Positions 4,455-47,600 of a stretch of DNA of 64,000 nt are shown here, piece by piece. Location: contig NC_092679.1 in the NCBI RefSeq assembly GCF_964355755.1, forward strand, positions 13,561,432-13,625,431, in the 5' to 3' direction. The notes beneath the pieces are model-generated. The model ran no database searches and was not told the DNA's origin. It saw nothing but the letters and a program-made list of their open reading frames with translations. Source of the stretch: Antedon mediterranea (taxonomy: Eukaryota; Animalia; Echinodermata). Each line of letters begins with the position of its first letter. Positions within the stretch are counted from its first letter, which is position 1. The position numbers and the translations under genes were made by a program.

Positions 4455-4575
4455 TCAAATGCTGATTGTGTTTAATTTCTTTCCACAATGTTCACATTCA
4501 TAGGTTTTTCTCTTGCGTGTATTCCTATCTATTCTCTTTAAAGTTCTTGCCACAATGTTGGCACTCTCCTAATTG
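4455..4575 (-). pseudogene. Decayed C2H2 zinc-finger remnant in the backbone (further copies ~5000-5115, 6430-6485, 14300-14360, 19235-19350, 25935-25990)
   Basis: Minus strand gives ECQHCGKNF...IH-REKP-YECEHCGKK, a degenerate TGEKPYxCxxCGKxF linker/finger with frameshifts. Confidence 0.6.
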
Positions 4576-5379
4576 CCATGACACCATTGGTACTTGGCAC
4601 CCTAGATCCAGGGACTATTATTGATCCACCATGCTAGGGTCCAATCGGAATCCAGTTGCTGGTTCCTTTAATGGTGGAAGAGGTGGAAGATGTGCAGGAA
4701 TGTGGGAAATTTTAACAATGTCAATGATTCCAAATAAGGATCAAATTGATGCTGTTGACATTTGTGAACATTTAATCCAATGTGATACTCAAGACATCCA
4801 GGAAAACTTAAACAATCAATTATTATCAAAGGAATGATAAATACTTTAGATTTAAAATATACTAAAGAAAGTCCTGGAGAAATGCAATTTCATGACTGAC
4901 AAAATGCTATGCTAAAATATCCAAGACAAGATAAATATAAATTAATATTTGTTATATTTAATAAGTAACGATGAATAATTCAGATTTAAAATTCAATAGT
5001 CAAATGCTGATTGTGTTTAATTTCTTTCCACAATGTTCACATTCATAGGTTTTTCTCTTGCGTGTATTCCTATCTATTCTCTTTAAAGTTCTTGCCACAA
5101 TGTTGGCACTCTCCTAATTGCCATGACACCATTGGTACTTGGCACCCTAGATCCAGGGACTATTATTGATCCACCACGCTAGGGTCCAATCAGAATCCAG
5201 TTGCTGGTTCCTTTAATGGTGGAAGAGGTGGAAGATGTGCAGGAATGTGGGAAATTTTAACAATGTTAATGATTCCAAATAAGGATCAAATTGATGCTGT
5301 TGACATTTGTGAACATTTAATCCAATGTGATACTCAAGACATCCAGGAAAACGTAAACAATAAATTATTATCAAAGGAA

Positions 5380-8209: not shown

Positions 8210-8658
8210 CAATTGTGCCATGTTCAGTTGGAGTTCCTTTGTTAATATTCTTTTCTAAACATCTGCTGTGTTTCAAATCTAAAACATATTTTTACAAATA
8301 AGTAACGTACATACAATAATTCTGTATTGTATGTACTTTAAATGCCAATGAATGTTATTTAGCCTAGGCCCCTTTACCATTTTAAAACTTGGGCATTGTT
8401 TAGAAGATAGCAGTTTATATTTAGGCATCATTCCTAGGCTAGCTAGGCCCCTATATCACACACATGGATAGGTAGGACTGCAGTTTATAACTGTTACTAA
8501 GCCTAGCCCTATACTTACTAGCCTAGCTAGGCTTTCTTAGAGAGGACAGTTTTAATATCATTGATGGAGGAAAATGGTTTTATAAATTATTTATTTAATA
8601 TAAAATTATATTAATTATTACTCAGAAAAGAAAATCAATCTCTTTTGGTTCAAATGGT

Positions 8659-8674
8659 GGCTCTGAAAAGAGCC
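8659..8674 (-). terminator. Replication-dependent histone mRNA 3' stem-loop (consensus) downstream of the PRPF18 fragment
   Basis: Minus strand GGCTCTTTTCAGAGCC, then ACCA and a purine-rich CAAAAGAGA downstream element. Confidence 0.9.
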
Positions 8675-8709
8675 TTTTGGTGTGAGAAGTCTTTGACTGT
8701 GTGTACTGC

Positions 8710-9108
8710 CTATCCACGGATATATTCAACACACCGCGACGGGTCCATTGGATATTGTCTCTGGCAAAGAGTCATTAACCTTTTCAATCCCTGGATGTAT
8801 TTTCTTTGTGTTTTATCATTTAGCACATGAGCAACGTGTTGTGCGTAGATCTTTTCTCTTCCAGTACGGGCATGAATACCCACCATAGTGACTCCTATTG
8901 GCCAAGGGGCATTGCCTACTGCCATTTGGAGATAAGCATCATTTGCCTTCACATAGTTTCTGTCCAATAAAAATCCAACAATCAACTTTAAATGTTCCAA
9001 GATATCTGTTGCAACATTCCTTTTCTTAAGTTTCCTTAAAAGTGGCTTAAGATAAGTTTTGGTTTGCGAATGAGTGGCGCTCAGTAACTTTCCTTTTGTA
9101 CTTCTTTT
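8710..9108 (-). pseudogene. PRPF18: Intronless fragment of pre-mRNA splicing factor Prp18 (C-terminal domain) fused to a histone H4 3' end
   Basis: 132 open codons: [31 protein letters not shown]...[65 protein letters not shown]...DPSRCVEY. There is no upstream ATG (in-frame TGA at 9112-9114). Confidence 0.93.
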
Positions 9109-9120
9109 GGTTCAAATGGT

Positions 9121-9136
9121 GGCTCTGAAGAGAGCC
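9121..9136 (-). terminator. Histone H4 mRNA 3' stem-loop (loop variant)
   Basis: Minus strand GGCTCT-CTTC-AGAGCC followed by ACCATTTGAACCAAAAGAAG. Confidence 0.85.
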
Positions 9137-9172
9137 TTTTTGGTTTGAGAAGTCTTTGGCTGTGTGTACTGC

Positions 9173-9590
<418 letters not shown>

Positions 9591-9899
9591 GCCCTACAGT
9601 AATAACGTTGACATAACTCAATGTGACCTCTTACGGGTTAGGAAATTCCTTATTGTGATTCGGGCGGTAAATTAAAACTAAAAATTAGAATTGCGCTTAA
9701 AAATTGAATATTAAGAAAATCATAGCAACATTCTTAACTTGTATAAGATAAGAATGTTGCTATGTGTATCCTGCTCCTTTGTTTGGTCACCTAGGTAGGG
9801 GTCCGGGACCGCGACAGAACGAGAACGGATGGGGGCCCTCCAAAGAAATTGCATTTTATTTGTCAGGCATTTGTATGATTTGTTTTTATTTTTTTTTAA

Positions 9900-10804
<905 letters not shown>

Positions 10805-12227
10805 TTACTTTCGAATTTCGAAATTAGATTTACGGTTTGGGTTCGTTTATAAGCAACCTGATAAGCAACCTGATTGCTGAAGGCAATTAGGAAACGTAAT
10901 GTGATTGGAAAAAATGTAGCTTATTACACGTCCGCATACAAATCTATCAAATCATCAATAGATACTCAGATCGCGCTGGTTTTCGTGAAACAAAAATAGG
11001 CCTAGATACAAAACAAAAGGATAAATACACCTAGGCCTATATATACTGTATTATCCATCTTCCTCCTATTCGATTTTAATTAAACAATAATACTGTAAGT
11101 AATTATAGTAGTAGTAAATTATAGTTTATACACAGCACAAGTACTTTCTTTAAATATGAAGGATGTGGTGTATGTATGTGGGCAGATTTCTCCACAGGGT
11201 AAGGTTTTAACCACAGTAAATGATTGTCATTTCATTAATTTTACCGATAATTAATATTAAGATGGCTCCAACTTTTTATTTCTTCTAATAATTTTTCATC
11301 TTTAAAATATTATATTATATATATATGCCATAGACACCATCCTTAATACGCGGCACCCCCGAGTCCTGGGACTTGGGGAACATGTTTCTTTTATTATTGA
11401 CCTTCCGTCATTAATTGGAAGGTGGTACATATTATGACAACCGATTCTATTATCTCTATTTCGAATTAGAAAACAATATTGCTTTATTTCACAGTGGACA
11501 TTCGGCATTTTGTTACTAATGGACACTTAAGAACAGTCAGGAAAATTCAAAAGAATTGCCATGTTACTCTATACGAGGTACCTGCTATGTGCTGTACACT
11601 TGTTTAAAAGTCAACATTAGACTGAAACAAGGTTCATACAGTATATAGTAAGCCTCCTATCTACAATCCGCAATTGACATTCAGATTCTGTATGAATTTT
11701 GTCCAGACAGCAATGCAAAAAGAACATTAATAAAGTGGGCATACCACATTCATGTGGTGTCTCCTGTGTGTATTCTCAAATGATTAATTGAATTATATAT
11801 TTAAATTATTAAAGACAGCACTCTTCCAATCGTTACGAAGGCCTTAGACACCATCCGTACATCTAATAAATAAAAAGCAGCTATAAATATTTATCGGAAT
11901 GAGAGTGACAATAAGGATTAACTTTAAAAGAATAAACACTAGAACAAAGAGAATTTCAAGTAGAATTTATTTTAAAAAATATCAATCACAAGATTAAATA
12001 CATCTTGAGACAAGATAAATAATTTGCAGAAGCAAAAAGAAAGATGTAATTGGGTATACCGCATTCATGTGGTGTCTCCTGTTTGTATTCTCAAATTATG
12101 CATGAATTCTATATTTATAAGACCACTTTCCCAATCATACACAGGACAATATTGCTTTCAAAATTTACCAACATATAATAGTCCAATGCTGATTGTGTTT
12201 CTTTCCACAATGTTCACATTCATAGGT

Positions 12228-12893
12228 CACGTGCACCACGACGATAGAATTATTGCCGAAACCGATTTGTTCGTTTACGGTGTTCTATCTCTGGTAGCGT
12301 TGGTGTACGAACCGACCATCAACAACGGTTCGTTGATGATACGCGTAAATGGATTGTTTTGTGGAATAGTTGCTTCGAACATTAACACTAAACTGTGCGT
12401 CGAGTTCGAAAAAGAAACTCGACGTTCTTGTAAATATTTGAAGATTATGCACGGCGTAAATCGAAAACGACACAAAACGTGCACGAATACGAATACAAAA
12501 GACGACATTGAGGTGCATCATCGCGAATACGAATTTTTTCCTTTGGTGTCGGCCAGAAACGAAGATCCCGACCTAGTTTATTCGTGCTATAATCCATTGT
12601 CGATGCACACCGAACTCGAATTGGAAATTACGCTGATTTCTTCATGGCGACAAAGTGTATCTGTTGAAGATGAAGAAATATGTAGGCGATTGAACGACGA
12701 ACACGGTATATTTGACGCGAAGAATTGTGTACAAAAAATCGATTTCGATGTAATGTATTTGAATTGGATGGAAATCGAAATAGTGAAAAGAATGCTTTGG
12801 TTTTTAATGTCTCAACAGCCATCTGCCCGCGACTGTTTTTCGTCGATGGTTGGTGATAGACGGTGGTTATATAAATTTACGAGTTATATTTCA
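12228..12893 (+). other. Foreign CpG-rich coding fragment (222 uninterrupted codons), possible endogenous large-DNA-virus or Polinton-like fragment
   Basis: No stop across the 666 bp. About 55 CpG by hand count against almost none in the adjacent backbone. It replaces ~80 bp present in the other backbone copies (e.g. 4505-4587). No protein family recognised. Confidence 0.5.
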
Positions 12894-14495
12894 GGTACTT
12901 GGCACCCTAGATCCAGGGACTATTATTGATCCACCACGCTAGGGTCCAATCGGAATCCAGTTGCTGGTTCCTCTAATGGTGGAAGAGGTGGAAGATGTGC
13001 AGGAATGTGGGAAATTTTAACAATGTCAATGATTCCAAATAAGGATCAAATTGATGCTGTTGACATTTGTGAACATTTAATCCAATGTGATACTCAAGAC
13101 ATCCAGGAAAACGTAAACAATAAATTATTATCAAAGGAATAAATACTTTAGATTTAAAATATACTCAAGAAAGTCCTGGAGAAATGCAATTTCATGACTG
13201 ACAACAATGCTAAAATATCCAAGACAAGATAAATATCAATTAATATTTATTATATTTAATAAGGAACGATGAATACTTTAGATTTAAAATATACTAAAGA
13301 AAGTCCTTGAGAAATATGCAATTTCATGACTGACAACAATGCTAAAATATCCAAGACAAGATAAATATCAATTAATATTTATTATATTTAATAAGGAACG
13401 ATGAATACTTTAGATTTAAAATATGCTAAAGAAAGTCCTTGAGAAATATGCAATCTCATGACTGACAACAATGCTAAAAATATCCAAGACAAGGTAAATA
13501 TCAATTAATATTTATTATATTTAATAAGGAACGATGAATAATTTAGAATCAAAATATACTAAGGTCCTGGAGAAATATGCAATTTCATGACTGACAACAA
13601 TGCTAAAAATATTCAAGACAAGGTAAATATCAATTAATATTTATTATATTTAATAAGGAACGATGAATACTTTAGCGTTAAGCGTCAAGGCCCAGTTTGA
13701 AACCGATTTAGATTATTTCAATGGACAAAGTGGAAGCCTATGTGATGTGATTTTCTGTACATGGTTTCAAGATTTAACAACCCTCGGATACCTGGCAGGA
13801 TCGGATTTTAACATCAGGCAGCCAAGATTATCTTAGGTACAGGTACTTATCTGCCATATTTTATTTATCTGTAATTGAAGCATCGCCTATAGAGATGAGC
13901 ACTGTAAAAGCAATTATTGAATGTAGCTTATAAATGGCTGACAAATTCCAGCTGAAGCAGATAAGTGCTCATATTTGATCCAAGCAATTTATGCTAGTCA
14001 AAGAGATGCGATGAACAAATAAAAATTTTAAATATTTTAGATTCAAAATATTGCTGAAAATCTTTCAGAAATATGTAATTATCTGTTACAGCGGAATGCT
14101 CAAAATATCCAGGACAAAGTAAACATCAATTCTTATTTCTTATATTGAATAAGAAAAAATGAATACTTTCAAAATATACTAAAAAAAGTCATGAAGAAAT
14201 ATACAATTTGTTACCGAGAAGAATGCTAAAAATATAAAGGTAAACATCAATTGATATTTCATATAGAAAATGGAAAGATTTTAGATTCTAAACACATTGT
14301 GTTAAATTTTTTTCCACAATGTTCACATTCATAAGGTTTCTCTCCATATGTATTCCTAGATCAACAAACCGAAAATAACAAACAATAATGCCAAATTTCC
14401 TCAATTTTCACTAGGCCTAAGTGACAACTCACTAAGTAAAGAGCCGCGATTTACATAAACCACAGCTTGTGGTCTGACAGTGCAACATAAACAGA

Positions 14496-17400
14496 TAGTA
14501 GAGCAGTTAATGACATGAGCTGTGCATTTTATTACCAAAGCATGAAACTTGGCACAAAGTTTCTTTGATGTATATAGATTCAAAATATCAGGGGGTGCCA
14601 AGTGTCCAACGTCCGGTATGGCGGCCATCTTGATTTCAAAATGGCCACCATAAAAACAAAAAATTTTCATATCTTGGCAACTATACACATTAGAGACTTA
14701 ATTCTGGTCTCAAATTGTTCACAAACCATATATTTCTATTTGCTCTAATGAAAAGTTTCGTCCAAAAATGACCGGAAATGACGTTTCTTACAGTTTGACC
14801 TTTGACCTCGTATTTGTATATCTCTGATTTTGGTGTCATTTTGTTCAGAATAAATACATTTATATTTGTAGTAATGAAACATTTTCACATAAAATGACCG
14901 GAAATACAATTTATGACCTTTGACATTAATTTATTGATTTTTAATGTGAATATACTGTAGGTGGTTTTTGTTGGTCTAAAGTGCACCTAATTTTGAACTT
15001 TAACCTGATAGGCGTAATTATATTAAATGATTAATGGACTTAAATTGTATATAGTACATAAAATTGGTAAACATTGTGCTTGGTGGTACCATTAGTTCAA
15101 TGATGTTGGCACCTTCTGATTCGCTAAAAGTTTTAATAGTTTGACAGAGGAAATAACATACATGTTATTGAATACCGTAAAACCTCGAAAAGGTGATAGT
15201 ATGAGCTTCTTTTCGAGACAGACTGTATTTGATTGTCAAATGAATACTAGTATGATGATCGTGTTTATATCAATATATTATTAATGACCTTACAAAGAAC
15301 CCTTTCTATTTCAACAATTAAGCCACAGTTATTCTACAATTTATTGTTTTCCAAGTGGTAGGCTTATTTTGATTGCATCTTATTTTTGTATGCTTCCTCG
15401 GTTAATATGGTCCTAACCCTCCTTCTTTGTCTGTAGATGATCTTATACCCCATTCTTTGTCTGTGGATGGTCTTTACCCGCTTCTGTGTCTGTTGATGGT
15501 ATTATTACACCCCTTTCTTTATGTGTGGATGGTCTTACACCCATTTCTTTGTCTGTGGATGGTCCTACACTCCCTTCTTTGTCTGTGGATGGTCCTACAC
15601 CCCTTCTTTTTCTGTGGATGGTCCTACACCCCCTTCTTTGTCTGTGGATAGTCTTATGCATCCTTCTTTGTCTGTGGATGGTCTTACACCCCTTTCTTTG
15701 TCTGTGGACGGTCTTATACCCTTTTCTTTGTCTGTGGATGGTCTTATACCCCTTCTGTGTCTGTTGATGGTATTACACCCCTTTCTTTGTCTGTTGATGG
15801 TATTAAACCTCTTTCTTTGTGTGTGGATGGTCTTACACCCCTGTCTTTGTCTGTAGATGGTCTTATAATCCCTTCTTTGTCTGTGGGTGGTCTTACATCC
15901 CCTTCTTTGTATGTGGATGGTCCGATGGTCCTACACCTCCTTTTTTGTCTGTGGATGGTCTTATACCCCTTCTTTGTCTGTAAGTGGTCATATACCCCTT
16001 TCTTTGTCAGTGGACGGTTCTACACCCCCTTCTTTGTCTGTGGATGGTCTTACACCCCTTTCTTTTTCTGTGGACGGTCTTATACCCCCTTCTGTGCCTG
16101 TGGGTGATCTTATACCTCTTCTTTGTCTGTTGATGGTATTACACCCCTTTCTATTTGTCCGTTGATGGTATTACACCACTTTTTTTGTATGGCTGGTCTT
16201 GCACTCCTTTAATTTGTCTGTGGATGGTCTTATACCCCTTCTTTATCTGTAAGTGGTCCTATACCCCTTTCTTTGTCAGTGGTGGATGGTCTTACACCCC
16301 TTCTTTGTCTGTGGACGGTTCTACACCCCCTTCTTTGTCTGTGGATGGTCTTACACCCCTTTCTTTTTCTGTGGACGGTTTTATACCCCTTCTGTGCCTG
16401 TGGGTGATCTTATACCCCCTTCTTTGTCTGTTGATGGTATTAACACCCCTTTCTTTGTCCGTTGATGGTATTACACCCCTTTTTGTATGTGGATGGTCTT
16501 ATTTCTTTGTCTGTGGATGGTCTTATTTCTTTGTATGTGGATGGTCTTATACCCCCTTCTTTGTCTGTGGATGGTCTTATATCCCCTTCTTTGTCTGTGG
16601 ATGGTCTTCTCCCCTTCTTTGTCTGTGGATGGTCCTACACCCCCTTCTTTGTCTGTGGATGGTCCTACACCCCTTATTTGTCTGGGGATGGTCTTATACC
16701 CTCTTCTTTGTCTGTAAGTGGTCCTACGCCCCCTTCTTTGTCTGTGGATGGTCCTATACCCCTTTTTTTGTCAGTGGATGGTCTTATATCCCCTTCTTTG
16801 TCTGTGGACGATCCTACATCCCCTTCTTTGTCTGTAGATGGCCTTACACCCCTTTCTTTGTCTGTGGATGGTCCTATACCCCTTTTTTTTGTCAGTGGAT
16901 GGTCTTATATCCCCTTCTTTGTCTGTGGACGGTCCTACATCCCCTTCTTTGTCTGTAGATGGCCTTACACCCCTTTCTTTGTCTGTGGATGGTCTTATAC
17001 CTCCTTCTTTGTGTGTGGATGATCTTACACCCCCTTCTTTGTCTGTGGATGGTCTTACACCCCCTTTTTTGTCTGTGGATGGTCTTATACCCTCTTCTTT
17101 GTATGTGGATGGTCTTACAACCCCTTCTTTGTCTGTGGATGGTCTTACACCCCCTTCTTTGTCTGTGGATGGTCTTACACCCCCTTCTTTGTCTGGACCC
17201 ACTACTTTGATTGATTAAATTAGACATTGTTTCTCGTATGATTAGGAAACCAAGACCTTTAAAGTGAAAGTCCACAGGTGGATGCCTAAACAGGTCTTGT
17301 ACAGAACAGTATATTGTAGGTCCATGTCACTAATTTGAGGATTACTTGAATAATTATATTGAGATGTCTTTTACGAATTGATTTAGTTCGGATTTTGCTA

Positions 17401-18163: not shown

Positions 18164-21100
18164 GAGAGAGTATATTGATCCAGTTCGTTTGGTCAAAGTT
18201 CTGCTTTTTAAATATTCCTTTTTACAAGACAACATAAGTATAAAGATTCAAGGAGATGGTGCTCAAATGGGTAGTTGTAAAATTACTTGTGGGAATTTCA
18301 TTTCTTAACCACGAAATAAAGCTGTTTGGCATATCCTATCAAAATCTAAAAGAAAATTTACCCAGTTACACTTTTCTATGATTGTGATAACCTAGAAGAA
18401 AACTTAAAAATTCCTTTTCTGGAAAGATTAGTTAAACATTTTCAATCAAATTTTACCTTTTATTTAAGTGGAGATGAAATGTTCATCCAAGGTATACTGG
18501 ATGGGTCATCTGTTTTAGGACCACTATAAACAGAGAAAGGTTGGAATATCTATAATGAATGTAGCAAAAAGTTAAAAAAAAAATGTTTTAGAAAACGGTA
18601 TCCGAACAGACTTACCATGCCTAATATTGATAGTATCCATCCAGTTTCATACTGCCATCAATTCCACTTATCTATATACTGGCATGCATTCTTCTCTGGA
18701 TTTCAATGTGTACCAAAAAACTTTTGTCATTAGAAGTTGAACATTACAAGAACCTAGTCTGACATAAGTGGGCATACCGCATTCATGTGGTGTCTCTCCT
18801 GTGTGTATTCTCAAATGATTCATGAATTATACATTTAAATTATTAAGACAGCACTCTCCCAATCGTCTCGTAGGCCTTAGACACCATCCGTACATCCAAT
18901 AAATCCTACTTTAAAAAGCCGCTATAAATATTTATCGGAATGAGAGTGAAAATGAGGATTAACTTTAAAAGAATAAACACTAGGACAAAGAGAATTTCAA
19001 GTAGAATTTATAAAAAAATATTAAGCAGAAGCTTAAATACATCTTAAGACAAGATAAAGAATTTGCAGAAGCAAAAAGACAGATGTAATTGGGTATACCG
19101 CATTCATGTGGTGTCTCCTGTTTGTATTCTCAAATGATGCATGAATTCTATATTTATAAGACAGCACTCTCCCAATCATACACAGGACACAAAGTTCAAA
19201 ATATTGCTTTCAAAATTTACCAACATATAATAGTCAAATGCTGATTGTGTTTAATTTCTTTCCACAATGTTCACATTCATAGGTTTTTCTCTTGCGTGTA
19301 TTCCTATCTATTCTCTTTAAAGTTCTTGCAACAATGTTGGCACTCTCCTAATTGCCATGACACCATTGGTACTTGGCACCCTAAATCCAGGGACTATTAT
19401 TGATCCACAACGCTAGGGTCCAATCAGAATCCAGTTGCTGGTTCCTTTAATGGTGGAAGAGGTGGAAGATGTGCAGGAATGTGGGAAATTTTAACAATGC
19501 ATGTCAATGATTCCAAATAAGGATCAAATTGATGCTGTTGACATTTGTGAACATTTAATCCAATGTGATACTCAAGACATCCAGGAAAACGTAAACAATC
19601 AATTATTATCAAAGGAATGATAAATACTTTAGATTTAAAATATACTAAAGAAGGTCCTGGAGAAATGCAATTTCATGACTGACAACAATGCTAAAATATC
19701 CAAGACAAGGTAAATATCAATTAATATTTATTATATTTAATAAGGAACGATAAATAATTTAGAATCAAAATATACTAAAGTCCTGGAGAAATATGCAATT
19801 TCATGACTGACAACAATGCTAAAAATATCCAAGACAAGGTAAATATCAATTAATATTTATTATATTTAATAAGGAACAGAAAAATACTAATGCTTATTGG
19901 TACATACTAAACACTAACTCAATCTTCGATTGGTCTAGTATTTTGAAGAAATCATTATCTCTTTTGGCAGTACCATCTAGTCACAGATTGTTTGCTGTTT
20001 TCGATATCACTAAGGTCCACACATTGAATTAGATTTACAATGATGGGGTTTGAATATCTTTAGAGAAGAGTTCAGTATAAGATCATCCAAAATTAACAAT
20101 TTCTAACAAGAAATACAGTAGCCACCCTTTTTTCTGCTTACTTTAAAAGGAAATTTAAAGTAGTAAATTATAGTTTATACACAGCACAAGTACTTTCTTA
20201 AAATGAAAGATGTGGTGTATGTATGTGGGTAGATTTCTAAACAGGGTAAACTTTAAACCACAGTAAATTACAACTTATTTCTATAGACCAATAATATCTA
20301 CAGATAATATCCACAAAAATGTGCTAATTTCTAATACACTTCATGATTAATTTCATTTATTATTTTTCAACTGTAGTTTTCATTTTTACCGATAATTAAT
20401 ATTAAGATGGCTCCAACTTTTTATTTTTTGTAATATTATATTTTATATCTATTTTGATTATTATATTATTAGATTAGATTGTTTGATTGCAGGTATCCTG
20501 TAGACATGTATATGGAAAATGATGTTGTATTACACATTCCAGAAGATCTAGACTTTGATCTAAATGTAAATTTGCCATGTCATGCAATTTATTCTGCCAA
20601 TAGTTTGGACACACATTAACTTGAGAGTTATACCAACAAGAAGCAAACATTTGAAACTAAAAGGAGAACTTAAGAAACATGTAATTGTACACCCATCTAA
20701 AGCCAATATTCCTAGGCCAGAAACCGAACCCCAAGCTGCAGAGAGTAGACACCAGCTTGGGGAAGCTCTTCCTACAAACAGGGAAACAAGAAGCAAATTG
20801 GTCTGTAGCAAAACTAAAAGGAGAACTTAAGAAACATGTAATTGTACACCCAGCTAATGCCAAAAAAAACACAGTTGTTACGCTTATTTAATGAAGTCAA
20901 TATTCCTAGGCCAGAAACCAAACCTCAAGCTGCAGATAGTAGACACCAGCTTCTGGAAGCTCTTCCTACAAAGAGACTACTGATCCACTTAGTTTCTATG
21001 TTGTCAACAACATTACAAAATCTTCAACAATATGTGGCATCATTGACACGAAAAGTGAGTTCTTTGAGCTCTCAACTACAGCCGCAGTTGGTAGTCCTTC

Positions 21101-32600: not shown

Positions 32601-35600
32601 TAATTGTAACCCTGGGTTCTTTGATTGTTTTTTTACAGTGGGTTAATATTAGAAGGGGGGGGGGGGGGGGGTTACTATTAGAGTAGTGGGTTACTTTTAC
32701 TTATCTTAAATTAGGCACTTGAAAATAGTAACCAACTCCAACTATTCCGGTCAGCAAATCATAAGCAAAAAATAATAAAACAGTACGAATAAACAAAAGT
32801 GGTTGAACTCTAACTTTATTTAATAAACTCAAAAGCACTCAATTCACCCCACACTCCTGAGATCAACTTGCCTTATCTCTTTATTTCATCATATTGCATC
32901 ATAAACGACCAGTCTTCATAATGTCATTTTGTCAATAGTTTTGTGACTCTAATATTAACCCCATGGGTTACTATTAGAGTAGTGGCCCGGGTTATTATTA
33001 TAGATTGACTTATAAGGTGGGTGACTATTAGAAGGGGGTTATTATTAGAATGTGGGTTACTATTAGAAGATTTACGGTATAATGAAAATTAGACTAAATA
33101 CAGATGTTAATTTCGTTTTACTCTAACATTGTATTAATTTAATAAGAAAATTCAAAATTAAATTTACAGGTACAAAATTATTTTCTTCTGTTAAAAATAT
33201 GTCTTGTAAGTTGTAGGAAAAGATTTGTTTCCGAGGTCAACATTTTTTATTTATTTAAAACAATTTTATATCTATTTTTGTTTTACTATTTACTACTATG
33301 TTTTAACAACTCTACAATCCTTGATATAACAGTTTGCATAGTTTATCTGTGTTGGTGTTTTATAACAACACCTTGTCACTGTTTGTCAATATGTATATAG
33401 TTTTCTGTAATATGGTTCAAAATACAGATGCAAAATTACGTCTCTAGTGGGAACCTTAAAAGTTGAATGAAAGATTCACCTACTGAAGTTTAATAAAAAC
33501 CCCGTTTAAAAACCAATCTTTTAAAGTTTTTTTGTAATTCAATTTATTTTAAGCACTTTGGGACAATTTTCTGATTGTTAAAAGCACTATATAAATTTGA
33601 CAACATTATTACACCAGTAATTTGATTTAAAACAAATTAAGATCACTTACGGTAATAATTTCACTAAGAATTTCTGAATAGTGTTTTGGTAAGGTAGCTC
33701 CAACCAATATCAACTGAGCCTCAATTGGTGGATAGTTATGCGACCAGTTACCAAGGCAAATCTACAAAACATAGAATGAAAAACAACTTTTTTTTCCCTC
33801 AGTAATTACAACTTTTTTTATCTGTTATCTATAAAAAAGGTACCCTCTATATAAAAAAAAAGATGTTTTGGAAAATGGCAACTATGGAATACAGCAAGTG
33901 CTTTTATGAGAAGAAAAAAACAGCATGTTTTCCCAGAAATAACTTGAAAAATGGCATCTATGGAAGTGTGCCTTTAGTGAAAGCTTATAAAGCACAGTGA
34001 TGTGCAAGTGATTTATAACTAAGTCATAAAAAAATTTCAAAATTTATATTGATTATTTTAAACATGGCTCTTACATTTTAAAATGCAATATTAGAATAAA
34101 GTATTATCAAAACCTACATTCACATTTTGAAGAATCCTAATTATGTTATTGGAGAAGCTGCCATCTAACATTGTATCTACCTCATCAATAACAACATGGT
34201 GAATGTGCTTCATAGACACAAATTCTGAAATGGAAAATGTTATGGTAGATGATTTTACAAAATGTAAAAAAACCAATGACACCAACAAAAGCAACTATTA
34301 TAAATAGATTTCAGTGTTAAAAATATTAAATATATTTGACTCTATATATTACGGTAACCACCTCTATAAAGGTTCTTTGATAAATCTAATGATCTCTCAT
34401 CTCCAAACATGGAGGTGCAACTTTCCGCCAATTGTTTTTGACAAAAAAAAAATATCCTGGTAAATGGTAGTGTATAAATATAAACTTACTATTTAGAGGT
34501 TATACAAAATGGCCCCTGTTGGTTAACTAAAGGAAAAGAATGTCACGGATAGAAAAGTACCTGACCTGCCCTCCAAGAACTTTGTTAGGACATTTGTTTC
34601 TCACTTTTTTTTAATACAAACATTTTGTTTTGCCTACTCAGTGTGCGTTTCCAATATTTGCATAAGAAAATCATGTTATACTTTAATTAGAATAAAACTT
34701 AGTAGTAATATTTACTCTCTCTTAAACAGCCTATCAATGGACCAGGTGTTGATATGATGATGTCCACTGGAGTCTTGAAAGTATGTAGCATGGTTTTCTG
34801 CATTAAAAAAAAAAAAAAAATTAGATTTAAAATAATGGATTATTGTTTACCATGGCAAAGGTGAATCTTTCAACTCTAATGCTCCCACTAGAGAAGTAAT
34901 GTTGCGTCTGTATTGGCAACCAGAGTTTATTGCCAATAAACAGAATTTTATGACATTATTTATTCTATTCTTGTGTAATCATACCGAAGTATGTACTCGC
35001 CAATTGCAGGACAGGAAACCCGCCAGATCTAACTCTAATAGGATTTGAACCAAGGATTGGTAAGGAAATGGATCCATCTGGTGAATAAATTGCTTATTAC
35101 CTTTGATTTTGATCCTTCCAGATGGCGTATGGTGACACTGTTCTCAGATGTTAATAACCGTCCTACTTTCTGTAAAGCAACAAAAACTTTGTAAATTCAA
35201 TGTAAATTATCAACATCACACATAGAGAATACATAGAAAGCATACCACCTCAATTCACACTCAAGGCTAATTTACAGACAAGCAGTAATATGAAGCAATA
35301 AACGGTAAGCAGAAAACAAAATATGTAAAATTTGTTAGTTCTTATGACCATTTCCACAAAACGTGGAGTAGACGGGCGGTTGAGTGGAAACCAGATGGAT
35401 ACCCGAGGATAGATACCCGATTCTATGTGGGACAAGCTCACGGTTTTCCGCTTACCATTACATTAAAAGATGTCTAAAAAAGTCATCACACATGGACTGT
35501 TGTAGTGCTATGAAGCCGAACTTCAGTATGAAAGTCAGTCAATTGGTCAGTCATTTCAGCATTTCAAGATGGCTGTTGTTAGTGTTGAAAATAACTTGTC

Positions 35601-38600
35601 CTATCTAGTTTTTTTAGAAAAATGATTTACATTTTACCTCAACTTGTATGGCAAGTTCTCTAGTTGGTACTAATATCAAAGCACTGGGATGTTTTGGTTC
35701 AGCTTTCATACCAAATGTATCTCTTTCATTGTACAACATATTGAGGAGTGGAAGCAGATAAGCCAAGGTCTTTCCACTGCCTGTTTCAGCTGCAAATAGT
35801 ACATTCTTCCCCTCTAATAAGGATGGTATTGCATTGTACTGTAAAGGAAATTAAAAACGAGTTAATATCAGGTCAAGTGAGCAACATAAGAGTTTGATTA
35901 TTTTTATTAATTTCCAACAGTCTAACTAGAATCACACAGAGTACAGTTTTTCCTTTACATGTGCAAAAATGAGTAACTTCCATAAAGTTTATTAAGTTAG
36001 AGATACTAGTTCCAAGTTCCAGATTCAAATGTATAGGTGATTACAAGAGACATTCATTATTTAAAAAAATCTAATTCACAAATCTAGGCTCATGTTAGTA
36101 TGAAATTTTCTTTCATTTGACATCCAAAAACAGACTGCTCCAGCGGTTTTCGAATTTTAAAGTGGAGCTACACTCAGACTTTCTCAGCTTATATCATGTT
36201 TAAGTATGTTTAATTGAAAGTGATTACATAAAAAAAACCAGGAAAATACGGAAATATTTTCCAAAAACTAATTTGTAAAAAATCGGTCAGGAAATAGTGT
36301 TTTTTAACACATTACAGTTTTTCAGTAACTTAGGGGTTATTAGTTTACAATACGTCGCAAAACGCGTTACACTTAGCGACTGACGCGTTTTAGTCGCCGG
36401 TCAACGCATTGATGAAATGTCTCCCCTTTGGTAAATTATGTGTCGAAAAATGGGGAATAAATTTTATACACACAATTAATACGATTTGTTTAGGCCTAAG
36501 TAATATTTCCGATAAGAATGTCAGTATAATTTACATGTAACCTCATGATTTTCACTGTACAACAACAGCATAATAATCTTATCAGATTGCTTTTAACTTT
36601 AAGCTAGGGCTAGCCCTAGCTCAGCCGTCTGCTCAGCCTAGCTAGCCTTGAATTTTTTTTTAGAGGCCTATGTATTCATAGGCATGGTCGTTTCGCCCCA
36701 TTTATCGTTCCTGGGTTTTCTCGCACATTAAGAATTGTGAAACACAAAATCCTATAGTATACAGAACAAGAGTAGTAAAGAGTAGTAAAGCGATGTGCAA
36801 GCTTAGACCTGACTGACTGAAAAGCAACTTTTCAGGCACCCTATCATGGCCCATGGGTAGGCCAAGGTCGGGTGCCAGCAAAACAAACTTCACTGCTGTC
36901 AGCCTAGCCTAGCTAGAGGCCAAGCAGCATCGGTACATACCTACACTCTAGTAGGCCTAGGCCTAGCTTTATTGAATATATAGCCACGTCTTTCTCAAAT
37001 CTCGTTAAATTTGACGTTTTAGTAATAGTCTCATAATCACATTATTACACTGTGAAACATAATAGGGTCACATTCAGAATGTTTTAATACTTTTCGCCCG
37101 TCAAAAATAACATCGCGACAAAATAACAGATTGCCAGCAGCTGCAGTAGTGTGATTGTGAAAAATGTCACGTGATCGTACTCCCTAGCAAAATAAAAAAC
37201 CCAATTGGACCCGAACGGGGGAAAGTGTCTATTTACGCAAAATTGCGCAATGTATACGTGATAAAAATACCAGAAATAGAAAGATCTGGGAAAAATAAAA
37301 AAAATATACATTTTACTTTTTTTTTTTGGTGAAGAAATGAATTTTTTAGGATTATTCAAATATACCCCCCTTTTGCATGTAAAAGAATAGGAAATTACAA
37401 GGTATCCCCCCAAAACGCAAAAAGGCGTGATTTTCAAGAAAATCGTACCCATTGAAAAAAAATTCAAAAAAATATGAAGTATAAGGGATGATATTTTTAA
37501 ATAATAGTTGAAATGTATGAAAAATAGTAATTTTCTGGGTGGAGCTCCACTTTAAAAAGCATTCACTATTTTGGAGGAACGGAACAGCGCAATAAATAAC
37601 CATCAGCATATAAACAAATTTTACTAACAAAGGTTTTACATTTTTTTTAATAGCTGGTATTGAACACAATGAAAATATACTAGAATACTATATTTTAAAC
37701 TTACTTGAATTTTTGTTGGATAATCAACACTCATTGTGCATAGTGCATCCTTAAGTGACTTGTGCAATGGAAGATCATCAAAGCTTATCTTCCTTTCAAT
37801 ACCATTGCTATCTGGTTTCTTACCAAGGTAGGAAGGGTTCTAAACAATATTAAAAAATTAAAAGACATTTTAAATTACTGCTAAATAAATACTTACCAAT
37901 TTAATTATGTTTTTAGGGGCAGGTCAAAAAGATATAAAAGGTTTGCATTTTAAACAACACTTTTAGATGGATATGATAAGACAATTCCTTCTAGAAAGCT
38001 TACAGAATGACCACTGACAGAGAATGGAGGCAATTGTTCATAAAGCCAATGACAATAGGATAACGCTGAAAAAAAAATGGTATCTAGTTTGAGTGTGACG
38101 TGGTAGGTAGAAATTGTGAGGCGACAGTGGCTTATAAAATAAACTATGGAAGACATTAGGAAAGGGCAATGCATATAACACAGTGCTCTGTAGCTAGGTG
38201 CTTGACACACTGCTTTACCAATTCCAGAGTTGTTGGTTCAAATCTTCTTCCAGCATAGGTTATGTCAAGACAATCTAACAACAAGACACTGAGCTTGCCT
38301 TGCCAAGATAGGAACTTGTAACAGTCCTTTGATCTTAAATTAAATGTAATCAAATAGGACAATTCTGTTCTGAGTTGAGATATTTCATGCATAATTATTA
38401 GCAAATCAGAGATAATGTCACTGGTTAATTTGTCATGGAATGCTCAATAAATAAAAACTTACACTTTTGTATGCAAGAATGGTGAAGTAGTCTCCCTTAG
38501 ATTTCTTATGTTTCCAGCCATGTGAAGCTAGCTTTGGTTGAGCAAATTTATCATACTTTTGATTCATATAATGGTTGAACTCTTTTCTCTTCGCAGAGAT

Positions 38601-41600
38601 GATTTCCTTTCCTGGTTTTGCCGTAAACACTCGTCCTTTCCATTTCACTGGCCCTTTGCCGGTTTTCAGTTTATCAATGCCCTTGGCAAGATTCCGTGGT
38701 ATGCGGATTACTTCCAAGCCATCGGACTCCTATAATTTTAGAAGAAAAACTAATTTATAAATATTTCGTGAAGATCTTACAAGATTGATTAACGACCAAT
38801 TAGCATATTCTTAATGATTTGTTTTCTCTGTTTTTGTGAACACTTCTTACCTGTTTGCTGTCTGCTCTCAACTTTTTAAATTCATATGTTATTTTATTGT
38901 AAAAAAAATCAACTATTTTGATTGCCAGTTTTATCATACTGGGCTCGCACTGGCCGATCGCCAAGTCGCCATGGGCGAAAACGTTTCCAGATTGGCGAAA
39001 AATAAAACGGCTACTTTAGCCACTTTGGCGATGACATATGATAAAATAGATAATCAAATAAGGTTAATTTACCAAGTACACATGTTTGTTAGTTCTAGAC
39101 CTCTGCTTTATGAATTGCATTGGCTACCTGTTGAAAGTAGAATCACTTTTAAAGTGTTACTTTATGTCTACAATTGTATAAATAATAATGCGCCCTGTTA
39201 TCTGAGCAATCTCTTACGGGTGTATAGATGTGCTAAGAGAGGCCTGAGTTCCGAGATAGATCACACTAGATTGGATCACTGTCTCGAAAAGCGGACCTCT
39301 GAAAATAATACTTTCTCAAAATTTGGACCGGTGATGTGGAACGACCTCCCGTCTGTATACCGGGAACAAACCACGGTTTTAAAATTTAAAAAAGCCCTCA
39401 AAACACATCTATTTCCTAAGAAGTAACTCATTGTTGGGTGTGCTGATGTAAAGCGCTTTGATCATTTTATACTAATTTGGAAAAGCGCTTTATAAATAAA
39501 ATAATAATAATAATAATAATAATCATTTTGGCGAAAGCATAAAGTCCAACTAAAAGGTCCATTTGTCGATCTTCAAGCATTTATTTTGTTCGTTATAATG
39601 TTGTTTACTTCAAGCTCCATTTTCGTCAACTCGTTGTACCAGGCGTCTCTTTGTTATTTCAATATGATGGAGGTACAGTATACTGCACAGAGAGACAGAC
39701 ATTACACGACACATGGATGATGGAGTCTACCCAAACTATCACGTGTTGCACTGCACGAACGATCGACGACTCGACAGCCGACGGTCGGCTATTTACCGGG
39801 ATTGTCTATTTTTCGATAGGGGTGTACTTTTCAGATTCAAAACAAACATAGTATCTTCAATGAATGATCTTATCGAAATCATTATTTATGCGTTATGCAT
39901 TTTAGGCTCCAATAATGTAGTTTCATATTTTACCCTTAATAAAGTTTCCTCGTGCGTGCAGTGCGTCAGTAGAGTAAACAAAATAACATTCGGGAAATGG
40001 TAGAGTCTAACGGGGATTTAGCTAAACAAACATAGTGCATTTATTGCGGACTATATAAACAGCAAGGCCGGCCTCCGGCTTCTGTGTTGTTGGGTAATAA
40101 ATAATCGAGCCGGGATGGTATACATTTCTCCCCGACAGAAATGCTTTTTCCCTGTGCTTTGGCCTATATTATCTGCACGTTCAACAACGATACGAGTGTT
40201 CGTTTGCTAGAAATATTTTAAGCATATACGACGTACCGTCGTACATAATTTTGTAGGCCTGCGCTAACTGCATTTTTGCACCTCTTGAGCATATCCAATT
40301 TAAAAACATTCACCCGCTGCGCAGCGGTGACGGTGGGTGATTGTGAAAGTCTTAGGACACGATTTTCGCATGGGGTACGGAAGCCACCAGCCAAGCGTAA
40401 AAATAACATAGCGTTCAGGGGATTTCAGAAAACTGTAAAACTTATTAACTTGATAACTGTATGAATGCTGTACGATTAAAAACAATTTGAACAATTGTTT
40501 TGATCATATAAAATACAACAACAATTATTTTTTTTAATCATACAGTGATTTAGGCATGGCTCTCTCTCCCCAAATGCCTTACAAAAACGTTCAGGGAACA
40601 GTGTATAGACCTATTGACATAGATAAATTAACTAAAATGTTTTTACCATTATATATCAACAATTTTTCATTTTGGCTAATGACCGATTCATTTGGCTAAA
40701 TAAAAAAAATTGGACTTTAGCCATTTTGGCTATAGGTAAACTGATTTGACTAAAAAAAATATTTTGACTTTCGTCAAATGGCTAAACAAAATGAAATGTT
40801 AGTGCTACCCCAGTCATATATTGTATGATGGGGTTTTTACCAAGAATAATAAAACATGATTGATTTAATATTGAATTGTTGATTATTTAATCACATTTAC
40901 CTGGTTATTAAAAGCATCTTTAACTGCAACACTGCCATACAATCTATTAATATTTAGACATCTTCTACAAACCTGAAAAAAAATATAATTTAATATCAAT
41001 GTACCAAAAAGTAGAGTTTGAAACTTAAATGTAACCAGGGCATCATTTATAAGGAGCGCCTGCGCGACCGCGCTCCTTTACGCTCCTCAACAGGCTTCGA
41101 GGAGAGCAATTTATCGCGCTCCTTAATTTTCAAAATAGAGCCTAGCTTTTGACAGTGTTGATTTTTCTGTCAAGAGGCCTAAAAACACATGGATTTTTAA
41201 AAGTTAAAACCAATCTAGGCCTAGGCTAATAATATATAAGCTAAGTTATAAAGCTACAAGCCTAATGGCAGTCCCTCGTTTTTAAGGATCGCGAGTGCGA
41301 TCGCAATCAACAACCTTTCGAAAAGGAGAGCAATTCATCGCGCTCCATCTCACAGCAGTGCGAGGTACCAACAAAGGGGATTCCCCTGCCTGCGCGCATT
41401 CAAGGGCGAGTTTACTTCATCGCCTCATAGTGCAACCAGTACGGTGTCATAGAAACACCTCCTTTACAGGAAGATCATGTCCCAACCAATAATTTTTCCC
41501 TTTATGTTTTTATGGAACGAGTTAATAAAATATATTTAATTTTAAAAGGCAACATTAATATAGGAGGCCTAAATATAATGTTTATTATTTAAAAAAGCTT

Positions 41601-44600: not shown

Positions 44601-47600
44601 AACAGTACGAACATTCATAGTAAGAAATGTTCGATTCAAATGAAAAATAGTTAATAGGTATTTACAGTATTGTCAAAGTATTGCAAGTTTATTCTCAAAG
44701 GGCCCATATATTTACCTACCGTATGTGTTAAACCAAGGGCTCATAAATTTACCTACAGTACTTGTGTTAAACCAAACTCTGGCAGACTGAGAGATTGGGA
44801 TGTTCCATTCATCGCAAATCAATACATTTGTATAATCGTATATTAAATCTATCAAAATAGTATTTTTTAAAGAAAATCGGCCTGTCTTCAACATTATGAT
44901 GGTGTACTCTAGCTGTTCAACCGGTTTTCAGCTATTAAAAACAATTATCGTAGGAGGAGATAGAAAAATGCGAAGCCTCCTCGCATTTTTTTGGCGGGTA
45001 TTTTTCAAGATGGACATCCATTAGACAGTGTATACCACGATCGGAAAACACCCCTATTTGGGGCAAATCGTTGAACCTAAATTCGTTTTAATCGTCAATA
45101 ACTAATTATCTAACTCAATTTAATTAGTAAACAGGGTTACATCAGGCGGTTAAAATCAGTACCGAAAGTACGAACCAACTTTACATACCATCGAGTGAAA
45201 ATTCTAGAAGTAAGGCGCGATTTACCGAATTTTGCCCTTACGTAAATTTATATATAGATAAATCTCATACAATATTATTTATTAATAAAAGATTTATAGA
45301 TTATAATATAATAGATTATAGCGGCAGCGTGCCCTAATAATTTGTTTTTTGTAGCAAAACCAATAGAATTTAACTTTTGTGGTCCAATTAAAACATTGTA
45401 ATTTTTTTACATATTTACATAAACATTTGAGGAGAGCGATTTAAAATTTTTGCAGGGAGAGCGAATTGCTCTCCTCGGTGATTTGAGGAGAGCGATTTGT
45501 TGCTCTCCTGGGTTTTACATACGTGATGCCCTGATGTAACCGAATAATTTAGTACTTCAACACAGGTTTATGATATCAATCACATTTAAAATCGGCTTCG
45601 CTATAAAAATCTGACATACTATTGCGTTTGATATACGCTGAAAAGATAGGGCTGCCAACTACGTCAACCAGCCTCACCCCTAAATCAATTAGTGTTTGAA
45701 TGTTAGTTTGTAAAAATGTGCATGAACGATTTTTGATTGACTAAGCCTAATAAATTGTGTTCCGCTGACTACGTACATGGCGTTTTATTTGGTTATTATT
45801 TTGTACGCCGTGGTTAGGATTCCGGCACCGGAATTCAACTGCCCACCGTTAGGGAATCCGACACGCTATTGCGCATGCCCAGAGCGAAGTAATTATTGCT
45901 TGCATGCACAGCTGCAGACCGCGCACACCCACACACCACCGAGAGTCGAACGTTGTTATAGGTATTTACTGTAGCCTTTAGTCGTTGCGCGGGGGAGAGA
46001 GCGATGGATGAAACTTGGCCTAGGCCATACATAAATTAAATAATTAAAATTTGCGTCCAACTTAATGATATATTGTACTAGGCCCAACCACTCACTTTTT
46101 CAGTTAATACGGATTGGACTCCATTGGATATAAGTTTACTTTTTATTTGTCGACTTAATGGGTTATCCTGGTATTCTTTTTGTACATTGTATGAATATCG
46201 AATAAAATCAATCAATCAAAATACGACTACGCCACGCGTTAAAAATAATTATTATGATATTGATAAGAATCAGTATCTATCTAAGAATCGTAATGCTGTA
46301 ATTTTATTAGACAGAGGAAGTATGAAGTTCGGCATAACGCTTGCGTATTTCAAGAAATGTACGAAATTGAAAATGCGACCTTCGACTTCCCGAACAGTTC
46401 TGCTTTTTTTACATCATATCCGCGCGGCGGCTGCCGTCAACAAATCAACTTGTATACGAGTGCATGTTATTACAGTATAATGCGTTATATGAAATCTTTT
46501 ATTTTGTACTTGAAAATCATAAAACTAGTCATGTAATTATAATTCATATTTATATGAAGTTTATATATGAATGGGCTAGGCTAGTTTGCCGTGGCGCAGC
46601 TATTAATAGATCCATCGCTGTTAGCAAAGATAGTGTAGTATCTTTGCTGTAGTCTGTAGATGATGATAGTTTAGAGTAGTCGTCGATTACCTCGCTCTGG
46701 GCATGCGCAATAGCGTGTCAGATTCCCTAACGCTGGGGGCAGTTGAGTTCCGGTGCCGGAATCCTAACCACGGCGTATTTTGTATGGCAAGTAAGTAATG
46801 AAATAATAATAAAAAAATACCAACCAAGCCAAATATAAAAGTAGATTTTTATAATGCACTAACACAGTAACACTAAAGAAAGGGCTCTGGCCTAAGAAAG
46901 GCCTACAGTACAGAAAGAAAATACTGCAACTTTACCTACGAAGTAGCTTCGTAGATAGAACGTAGGCTACGTTGTTGGCTTCGTAGGTTCCATTGTTTGG
47001 CTTCGTAACCTCAATAAACAACTTTCAATGAGCTACGTTCTGAACTTCGTAGGGAGTTCGTAACCTAAATAAACAACCCTACGATGTTCTTAGTGAAGTA
47101 AGGTATGAAATTAATGTGTTAAATTTAATTGGCGGAGGACAATGTTGTAAATTAATAAAAAATAAATAATATTTTTTAATCGTAATATTTTCCTTCGTGC
47201 GTGTTTACCTACTCAACGGCGAATATAAATATAAATTTCCCACGATGTATAACGTAGAGAGAGACACGATCCAACACAGGTGAACCGCAACGAACAGGCC
47301 AACTAATAAACATAATATAGCGAACGTCCCATCCAGAAACGATGCCGAGAAAAAATGATCGTAAACAATTCATTCTAAATATAGCATCAGGACGTTCAAT
47401 CGGCCCCCGGTCGCTCAAAAAGACTGCCGACAGAAGACCGTAATACAGACCTAGTTTTTTTTTGGTCACATGGCATGAAACGCGATACTCTCTCTGCTTA
47501 CCGCAATCTCTCACATGTTTTTTTTACTCAGTACGAGCACGAGAGGGTGGCTACCGTCTGACGACGATAAAACAGTAATTATAAGATCGTGGTACCTGGA

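What the first reader, a model, noticed from the sequence alone, without database searches (positions are those of the whole stretch)
12228..12893. CpG-rich orphan 222-codon insert, candidate fragment of an unknown DNA virus
Seen: 666 bp with no stop in frame and about 55 CpG (hand count, roughly twice the expectation for its GC content) inside a nearly CpG-free backbone. It replaces ~80 bp found in three sister copies. It is in frame with backbone on both sides, giving the 301-aa ORF, and is bounded by ag|GT...tttcAG|gt. Established: CpG excess in AT-rich coding DNA occurs in several large invertebrate dsDNA viruses. Inference: recent capture from a virus or Polinton-like element that has not yet been eroded by methylation.
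Basis: partly seen in the sequence, partly recalled or inferred. Interest (0 to 1): 0.75.

Follow-up and report, generated by a model that had tools for sequence, protein, structure and literature searches.

The report
Orphan viral-signature fragment in feather star
A 666-base piece of open reading frame with no known relative has replaced part of a decayed zinc-finger gene in a feather-star genome; its base-pair signature suggests it likely came from a large DNA virus not yet sampled, and a near-identical sequence appears in RNA from a second sample.

Summary
The 666 bp are stop-free, carry 55 CpG (O/E 2.07) and replace 83 bp present in three sister copies. The host is a crinoid.

New here:
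- The insert also lacks CpT/ApG (0.50). CpG excess plus CpT/ApG loss is the published signature of large invertebrate DNA viruses. None of 559 other windows comes close on either measure, and codon content does not explain it.
- The backbone is a decayed zinc-finger gene on the opposite strand, so the "301-aa ORF" is antisense backbone plus insert. The splice-like ends are mostly backbone letters.
- Three libraries of one sample hold it as a single identical contig. A spliced-RNA library from a second sample holds 355 nt of it with 3 differences.

No homologue was found in any protein, viral, metagenome, prokaryote or structure search. The viral origin therefore rests on composition alone, and algal-virus-like contigs show the same signature more weakly. 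Best reading: a young, probably neutral fragment of an unsampled large dsDNA virus, patched in at a DNA break (about 0.55). It is a useful probe for a crinoid virus, not a new system.

The parts
12228..12893 (+). Foreign insert: 222 open codons, no start or stop of its own (a gene fragment); CpG 2.04-2.07, CpT/ApG 0.50, CpC/GpG 0.67
12280..12634 (.). Part held by a 355-nt contig (3 differences, depth 3.3) in RNA run X5 of a second sample; strand unknown
   Evidence: table 8; RNA nature of X5
12198..12923 (.). Single 726-bp contig, no differences, in runs X1, X3, X4 (one sample); 30 backbone letters on each side of the insert
   Evidence: table 8
11327..12227 (-). Left backbone: decayed C2H2 zinc-finger-like repeats on the minus strand (motif label recalled, not from a profile search); 89% identical to sister copies
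12894..13650 (-). Right backbone of the duplicated unit, 94-96% identical to sisters, running into a ~130-bp tandem repeat
12009..12929 (+). Chimeric open frame, 306 aa stop to stop: 73 backbone codons, 222 insert codons, 11 backbone codons; ATGs at 12102, 12186, 12210. Sisters have only 10 open codons before the junction
4506..4588 (-). Sister A: the 83 bp that the insert replaces (contains a C-x2-C finger remnant)
5051..5133 (-). Sister B: the same 83 bp
19285..19367 (-). Sister C: the same 83 bp

Best explanation
The insert is likely a mid-gene fragment of a large double-stranded DNA virus not yet sampled, likely patched into one copy of a decayed, duplicated zinc-finger unit during repair of a germline DNA break that removed 83 host bases. 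Shown: the replacement, the open frame, the outlier composition, presence in contigs of one animal's sample and in RNA of a second sample. Inferred: the viral donor (from composition only), end-joining repair (deletion plus insertion, no target-site duplication, no terminal repeats), recent age (no TpG/CpA excess, no stops), and that it is a neutral passenger transcribed at low level rather than a working gene.
For: CpG 2.04 and CpT/ApG 0.50 (bootstrap 1.62-2.29 and 0.38-0.66) match in direction the signature of 88 large invertebrate DNA viruses (1.41+/-0.29 and 0.72+/-0.10; PMC4219779). 0 of 559 other windows reach CpT<=0.6; the lowest is 0.69 and the highest CpG 1.53. The bias persists across codon boundaries: CpG 30 against 15.2, CT+AG 11 against 22.7, 0 of 2000 codon shuffles as extreme. 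CT 0.55 and AG 0.46 are both low on one strand, as expected of a dsDNA donor (inference). Host sequences differ: helicase exons CpG 0.29, LINE pieces 0.61-0.76, histone genes 1.07-1.16, all with ApG/CpT near 0.9-1.2. The signature switches at the junctions (60-bp bins). Depth over the insert equals that of the one contig, so no second copy at 85% identity or more was laid. 0 of 1373 windows from 35 prokaryote and viral loci reach the insert's values. Endogenous herpesvirus-like regions are reported in a starfish (bioRxiv 10.1101/2025.04.19.649669). The top three Atlas clusters were viral LamG-like proteins (0.93; weak).
Against: No homologue: 0 hits among 92 and 431 word-sharing candidates. 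The 1 hit in 1.84 billion representatives is a multi-PDZ repeat artefact. No Pfam hit is better than E 0.11 for the whole insert. The signature is not exclusive: algal-virus-like marine contigs reach CpG 1.4-1.7 and ApG 0.67-0.78, and 1 of 987 of their windows matches the insert's thresholds. The published set is 84 of 88 insect viruses, so it says little about marine ones. The control panel is small and not random, and it holds no marine invertebrate parasites or Polintons. 666 bp is short for composition. The Atlas score has low recognition (1795) and only 118 shared features.
Confidence: 0.55

Rival explanations
1. Horizontal capture from an unmethylated cellular donor: a crinoid symbiont or parasite, or a food alga or bacterium, with CpG-rich DNA.
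For: No viral hallmark was found. CpG excess with ApG loss also appears in algal-virus-like contigs and, from recall, in some cellular genomes. Crinoids host many symbionts (PMC10967334, search listing only).
Against: No homologue in about 15 billion predicted proteins as searched or in 185,579 prokaryote genomes (close relatives only). The 8 bacterial loci sampled have CpG 0.77-1.09. 666 bp without an intron.
Confidence: 0.18
2. A piece of a virus-like or other host mobile element (Polinton/Maverick or similar) that is rare or extinct in this genome and was copied into the break.
For: Polintons carry orphan ORFs (recalled). The region collects mobile and retro-copied pieces, including a LINE remnant and an intronless Prp18 fragment. 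The whole genome could not be searched.
Against: TE remnants in the window have CpG 0.61-0.91 and ApG/CpT 0.87-1.09. No second copy was laid at 85% identity or more (contigs do not prove absence). The preprint reports that most Polinton-type regions resemble host composition.
Confidence: 0.17
3. A working new gene: the insert is translated with backbone-derived start and stop, or spliced in as a symmetric 669-nt exon, and is kept by selection.
For: The frame is open for 73 codons upstream, against 10 in each sister; 2.4% of window positions and 0 of 4967 backbone positions do that. A hydrophobic stretch follows the ATG at 12186. An H4-promoter-like 12-mer points toward it at 10927. RNA holds part of it.
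Against: The flanks are the antisense strand of a decayed zinc-finger gene. The splice-like letters pre-exist in the sisters. The RNA contig is shallow (3.3 against 12.7 for a housekeeping mRNA), has unknown strand and lies wholly inside the insert. An intact frame needs no selection if the insert is young.
Confidence: 0.07
4. Assembly artefact or contaminant.
For: The contig carries 30 flank letters per side, one short of the tool's 31-letter bridging rule, and the three runs may come from the sample the window was built from.
Against: The same 726-bp contig with both flanks appears in 3 of 3 laid runs of that sample, at host-like depth. A second sample from another study holds the sequence.
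Confidence: 0.03

Closest known systems
Non-retroviral endogenous viral elements of echinoderms: transcribed densovirus NS1 EVEs of sea stars (PMC7737747; passages read)
   Same: A short virus-derived gene fragment in an echinoderm genome, found in transcriptomes.
   Different: Those EVEs are identified by SF3 helicase homology to ssDNA densoviruses. This one has no homologue and a dsDNA-type composition.
Endogenous dsDNA viral regions across eukaryotes, including Herpesvirales-related regions in a starfish (bioRxiv 10.1101/2025.04.19.649669; passages read; supplements not seen)
   Same: Accidental germline insertion of large-DNA-virus sequence with composition unlike the host.
   Different: That survey needs two or three distinct viral gene hits per region. 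A single orphan fragment like this one would be invisible to it. The word 'crinoid' does not occur in its main text.
Large DNA viruses of invertebrates (baculo-, nudi-, asco-, hytrosa-, entomopox-, malacoherpes-, nimaviruses; PMC4219779, parts 1-2 of 6 and the virus list read)
   Same: CpG excess together with CpT/ApG depletion, independent of codon use.
   Different: The insert lies about 2 SD beyond the group means, shares no detectable protein, and sits in an echinoderm; the set has no echinoderm virus.

Membership tests
Endogenous viral element (non-retroviral) | Sequence or structural homology to a viral gene | tested here: inconclusive
   No significant hit. The models were too poor for fold search (pLDDT 36.5 and 51.0). 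Unsampled viruses would give the same blank.
Endogenous viral element (non-retroviral) | Embedded in host chromosome with host flanks | tested here: met
   Flanks are shared with three sister copies inside a histone- and zinc-finger-bearing region. A 726-bp contig with 30 flank letters per side is in 3 runs; this is one letter short of the tool's bridging rule.
Endogenous viral element (non-retroviral) | Germline inheritance (same junction in other individuals) | tested here: inconclusive
   The second sample holds 355 nt of the interior with 3 differences, but its contig does not reach a junction.
Large dsDNA viruses of invertebrates | CpG excess plus CpT/ApG depletion (a described signature, not a taxonomic criterion) | tested here: met
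   2.04 and 0.50 against 1.41 and 0.72; also seen, more weakly, in algal-virus-like contigs.
Large dsDNA viruses of invertebrates | Core genes (DNA polymerase, capsid, per os infectivity factors, terminase) | not testable with these tools
   Only 666 bp of one ORF are present and no host assembly is held.
Polinton/Maverick | Terminal inverted repeats, target-site duplication, pPolB, integrase and capsid genes | tested here: inconclusive
   None at this locus: the insert replaces 83 bp without a duplication. An internal fragment would lack them.
LamG/pentraxin (concanavalin A-like) domain | Profile or fold match over the beta-sandwich | tested here: inconclusive
   Atlas 0.93 with 118 shared features and low recognition. 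No Pfam hit. The N-terminal piece alone folded as low-confidence helices.
Spliceosomal intron or captured exon | Splice junction seen in RNA | tested here: inconclusive
   No 12225-12895 joint among the listed rows (7 rows not shown). The RNA contig is unspliced interior sequence.

The most novel reading that the evidence does not exclude
The insert is a trace of an undescribed lineage of large DNA viruses that infects crinoids, distant enough that one of its genes has no relative in public protein sets. The 99%-identical RNA in a second sample comes either from the inherited fragment or from that virus still circulating.
Probability: 0.35. Interest if true: 0.7.

Novelty: new member of a known kind. 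Interest (0 to 1): 0.42.

Why it matters
In the papers I could search (8 searches) I found no virus described from crinoids, and echinoderm viruses there are mostly small ssDNA and RNA viruses. If the reading holds, this fragment is a ready probe for finding such a virus. It also shows that a two-dinucleotide scan can flag viral fossils that homology-based surveys miss. As a single 666-bp passenger without an identified donor, it changes no mechanism by itself.

Tried and rejected
Protein searches:
- Near and longer length classes gave nothing; the 'shorter' class was not run.
- The one representative hit, P0001, is a 1451-aa multi-PDZ protein whose score sums over repeats; the best single stretch is 28.9 bits. 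Rejected.
- Pfam, PHROGs, NCBIfam, PDB sequences and phage tblastn gave nothing significant. Four minus-strand ORFs of 74-95 aa gave one weak hit below cut-off.

Contig scans:
- L001-L003 share an 8-residue word with small phage proteins; L004-L008 are similar short matches, one through a stop codon. All rejected as chance.
- Prokaryote genomes: 61 pattern matches, 0 confirmed.

Structure:
- Single-sequence models had pLDDT 36.5 and 51.0. BFVD gave 0 matches at E<=0.001. The wide PDB search gave best Z 4.5 and none at 5 or more. Uninformative.
- The second Atlas search gave nothing at 0.9 or above.
- A by-eye likeness of residues 20-75 to the end of a SPRY, neuralized or LamG sandwich is recalled and was not supported by any profile.

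Reads:
- No listed holder was on record as RNA; X5's RNA nature was shown separately.
- X5 does not cover 12635-12893, which proves nothing.
- Copy number is unresolved. Insert depth is about half the single-copy level in X1 (142 against 237-352) but near it in X3 (25 against 26-29, with some pieces at 11-20) and X4 (32 against 17-59), and the tool warns that depth is no copy number.
- The three differences in X5 were not among the rows shown, so their effect on the frame is unknown.

Other:
- No copy of the insert elsewhere in the window. No whole genome is held.
- Earlier-findings look-ups by sequence, place and words gave nothing on this insert.
- The bacterial promoter scan was irrelevant.

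Full report
Observation. The stretch 12228-12893 holds 55 CpG (O/E 2.07, GC 40.2%) and reads as 222 codons without a stop. It stands where three sister copies have the same 83 bp (4506-4588, 5051-5133, 19285-19367). A frame this long arose in 0, 3 and 22 of 5000 simulations at Markov orders 0, 1 and 2. The backbone is CpG-poor rather than CpG-free (0.56 and 0.38).

Host and setting. A Prp18 fragment 3 kb away is 93% identical to the protein of the feather star Anneissia japonica, against 78% or less for the other 119 listed hits. Earlier AI notes also call this genome a feather star. The insert lies in a duplicated unit whose minus strand carries decayed C2H2 zinc-finger-like motifs (label recalled). 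The replaced 83 bp contain a finger remnant. So the insert's frame runs antisense to the host pseudogene. The AG|GT at the left end and the GGT at the right are backbone letters present in all three sisters. There is no target-site duplication, and no copy of the insert elsewhere in the window.

Composition. Besides CpG 2.04, the insert has CpT/ApG 0.50 and CpC/GpG 0.67. Among 559 other windows the extremes are 1.53 and 0.69. Amino-acid content does not explain it: 2000 random recodings averaged 1.18 and 0.88 and never passed 1.66 or 0.63. Across codon boundaries there are 30 CpG against 15.2 expected and 11 CT+AG against 22.7, with 0 of 2000 shuffles as extreme. TpG/CpA is 1.02, so there is no sign of methylation decay, whereas host helicase exons show CpG 0.29 and TpG/CpA 1.27. 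PMC4219779 (parts 1-2 of 6 and the virus list read) reports CpG 1.41+/-0.29 and CpT/ApG 0.72+/-0.10 as the signature of 88 large invertebrate DNA viruses, 84 of them from insects. As a control, 0 of 1373 windows from 35 fetched loci reach CpG>=2.0 with ApG<=0.55, and 15 reach the looser 1.6 and 0.65. A further 28 marine viral loci, algal-virus-like by my recall of their genes, lean the same way: 1 of 987 windows strict, 33 loose. The signature therefore points to an unmethylated dsDNA donor of large-virus type but does not name the host range of that donor. The panel is small, clustered and not random.

Homology. Nothing was found among 5.8 billion clusters in two length classes. The single hit among 1.84 billion representatives is a repeat-summed PDZ artefact. 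Pfam, PHROGs, NCBIfam, PDB and phage searches were blank or insignificant. Four viral-contig scans, one metagenome scan and one prokaryote scan with the insert gave only short chance words. The Atlas ranked viral LamG-like clusters first (0.93), but with recognition 1795 and 118 shared features, which the tool calls weak. Structure models were unusable. The protein's function cannot be assigned; a lectin-like beta-sandwich end in residues 20-75 is a lead only.

Reads. Five runs hold the stretch, all coded organism A, from two samples and two studies. I laid 4 of the 5. X1, X3 and X4 (one sample, possibly the source of the window) each give one 726-bp contig, 12198-12923, with no differences. 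It has 30 backbone letters per side, one short of the tool's bridging rule; I infer that this is where 31-letter words branch into the sister copies. Depth over the insert equals that contig alone, so no second copy at 85% identity or more was laid, though contigs cannot prove absence. X5 is RNA: one 2243-nt contig joins three exons of a DEAD-box helicase gene (38463-38731, 37705-37839, 35638-35838) end to end across their introns. X5 holds 12280-12634 as a 355-nt contig with 3 differences at depth 3.3, against 12.7 for the helicase mRNA and 3 differences in 605 nt of its exons. The difference is thus of allelic size. The contig reaches neither junction and has no strand, so it may come from this locus, from another copy or from an outside source.

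Mechanism. The simplest account is repair of a germline break in one copy of the unit, with loss of 83 bp and capture of a foreign fragment (inferred from the anatomy). The neighbourhood shows another capture: an intronless Prp18 piece set between two copies of the histone H4 3' end with its stem-loop. The intact frame and undecayed CpG fit a young, neutral passenger. One oddity stands against pure neutrality: the frame is open for 73 codons upstream, against 10 in each sister, which 2.4% of window positions and 0 of 4967 backbone positions achieve. An H4-promoter-like 12-mer at 10927 also faces it. I give a working chimeric gene 0.07.

Comparison and novelty. It works like a non-retroviral endogenous viral element, as described for transcribed densovirus fragments in sea stars (PMC7737747, passages) and for dsDNA viral regions including a herpesvirus-like one in a starfish (bioRxiv 10.1101/2025.04.19.649669, passages; its supplements, not seen, may list crinoid regions). 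Membership is not proven, because the defining test, homology to a viral gene, is blank. Passages of PMC6950620, PMC11097642 and PMC11606319 hold no mention of crinoids. Verdict: a real foreign fragment, likely from an unsampled large dsDNA virus (0.55); rivals are a cellular donor (0.18), a mobile element (0.17), a new gene (0.07) and an artefact (0.03). Interest 0.42.

Noticed in passing
window 8634-9180 (-): An intronless Prp18-domain fragment (Pfam E 4.7e-54; 93% identical to the Anneissia japonica protein) sits directly behind an intact histone H4 gene, between two copies of about 80 bp of the H4 3' end, each with a histone stem-loop (Rfam hits at 9097-9141 and 8634-8679). It looks like an mRNA-derived piece that now ends in a histone 3' processing signal.
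   Followed up: partly
window 9752-10801: A histone H3 gene (-) with a frame break near its 3' end and no stem-loop hit, abutting a retrotransposon integrase-like remnant (+; BEL/Pao label recalled, no Pfam hit).
   Followed up: no
window 36156-37550: A 1395-bp high-copy insertion in a helicase intron is skipped by a contig in all three DNA runs of the sample, so it is probably a heterozygous transposon insertion.
   Followed up: no
window 33600-38731 (-): Multi-exon DEAD-box helicase gene (DDX28-like by recall), spliced in RNA run X5; used as the single-copy and RNA control.
   Followed up: partly
window 15407-17195: 30-bp tandem array of about 60 copies with long open frames on both strands.
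   Followed up: no
window 39500-40500 and 45000-49000: CpG-rich host stretches (O/E about 1.3) without the insert's strong CpT/ApG loss; probably unmethylated promoter regions.
   Followed up: no
L017-L035: 19 contigs of the viral collection encode histone H4-like proteins at 77-97% identity, including L032 among algal-virus-like genes; some may be eukaryotic contaminants.
   Followed up: no
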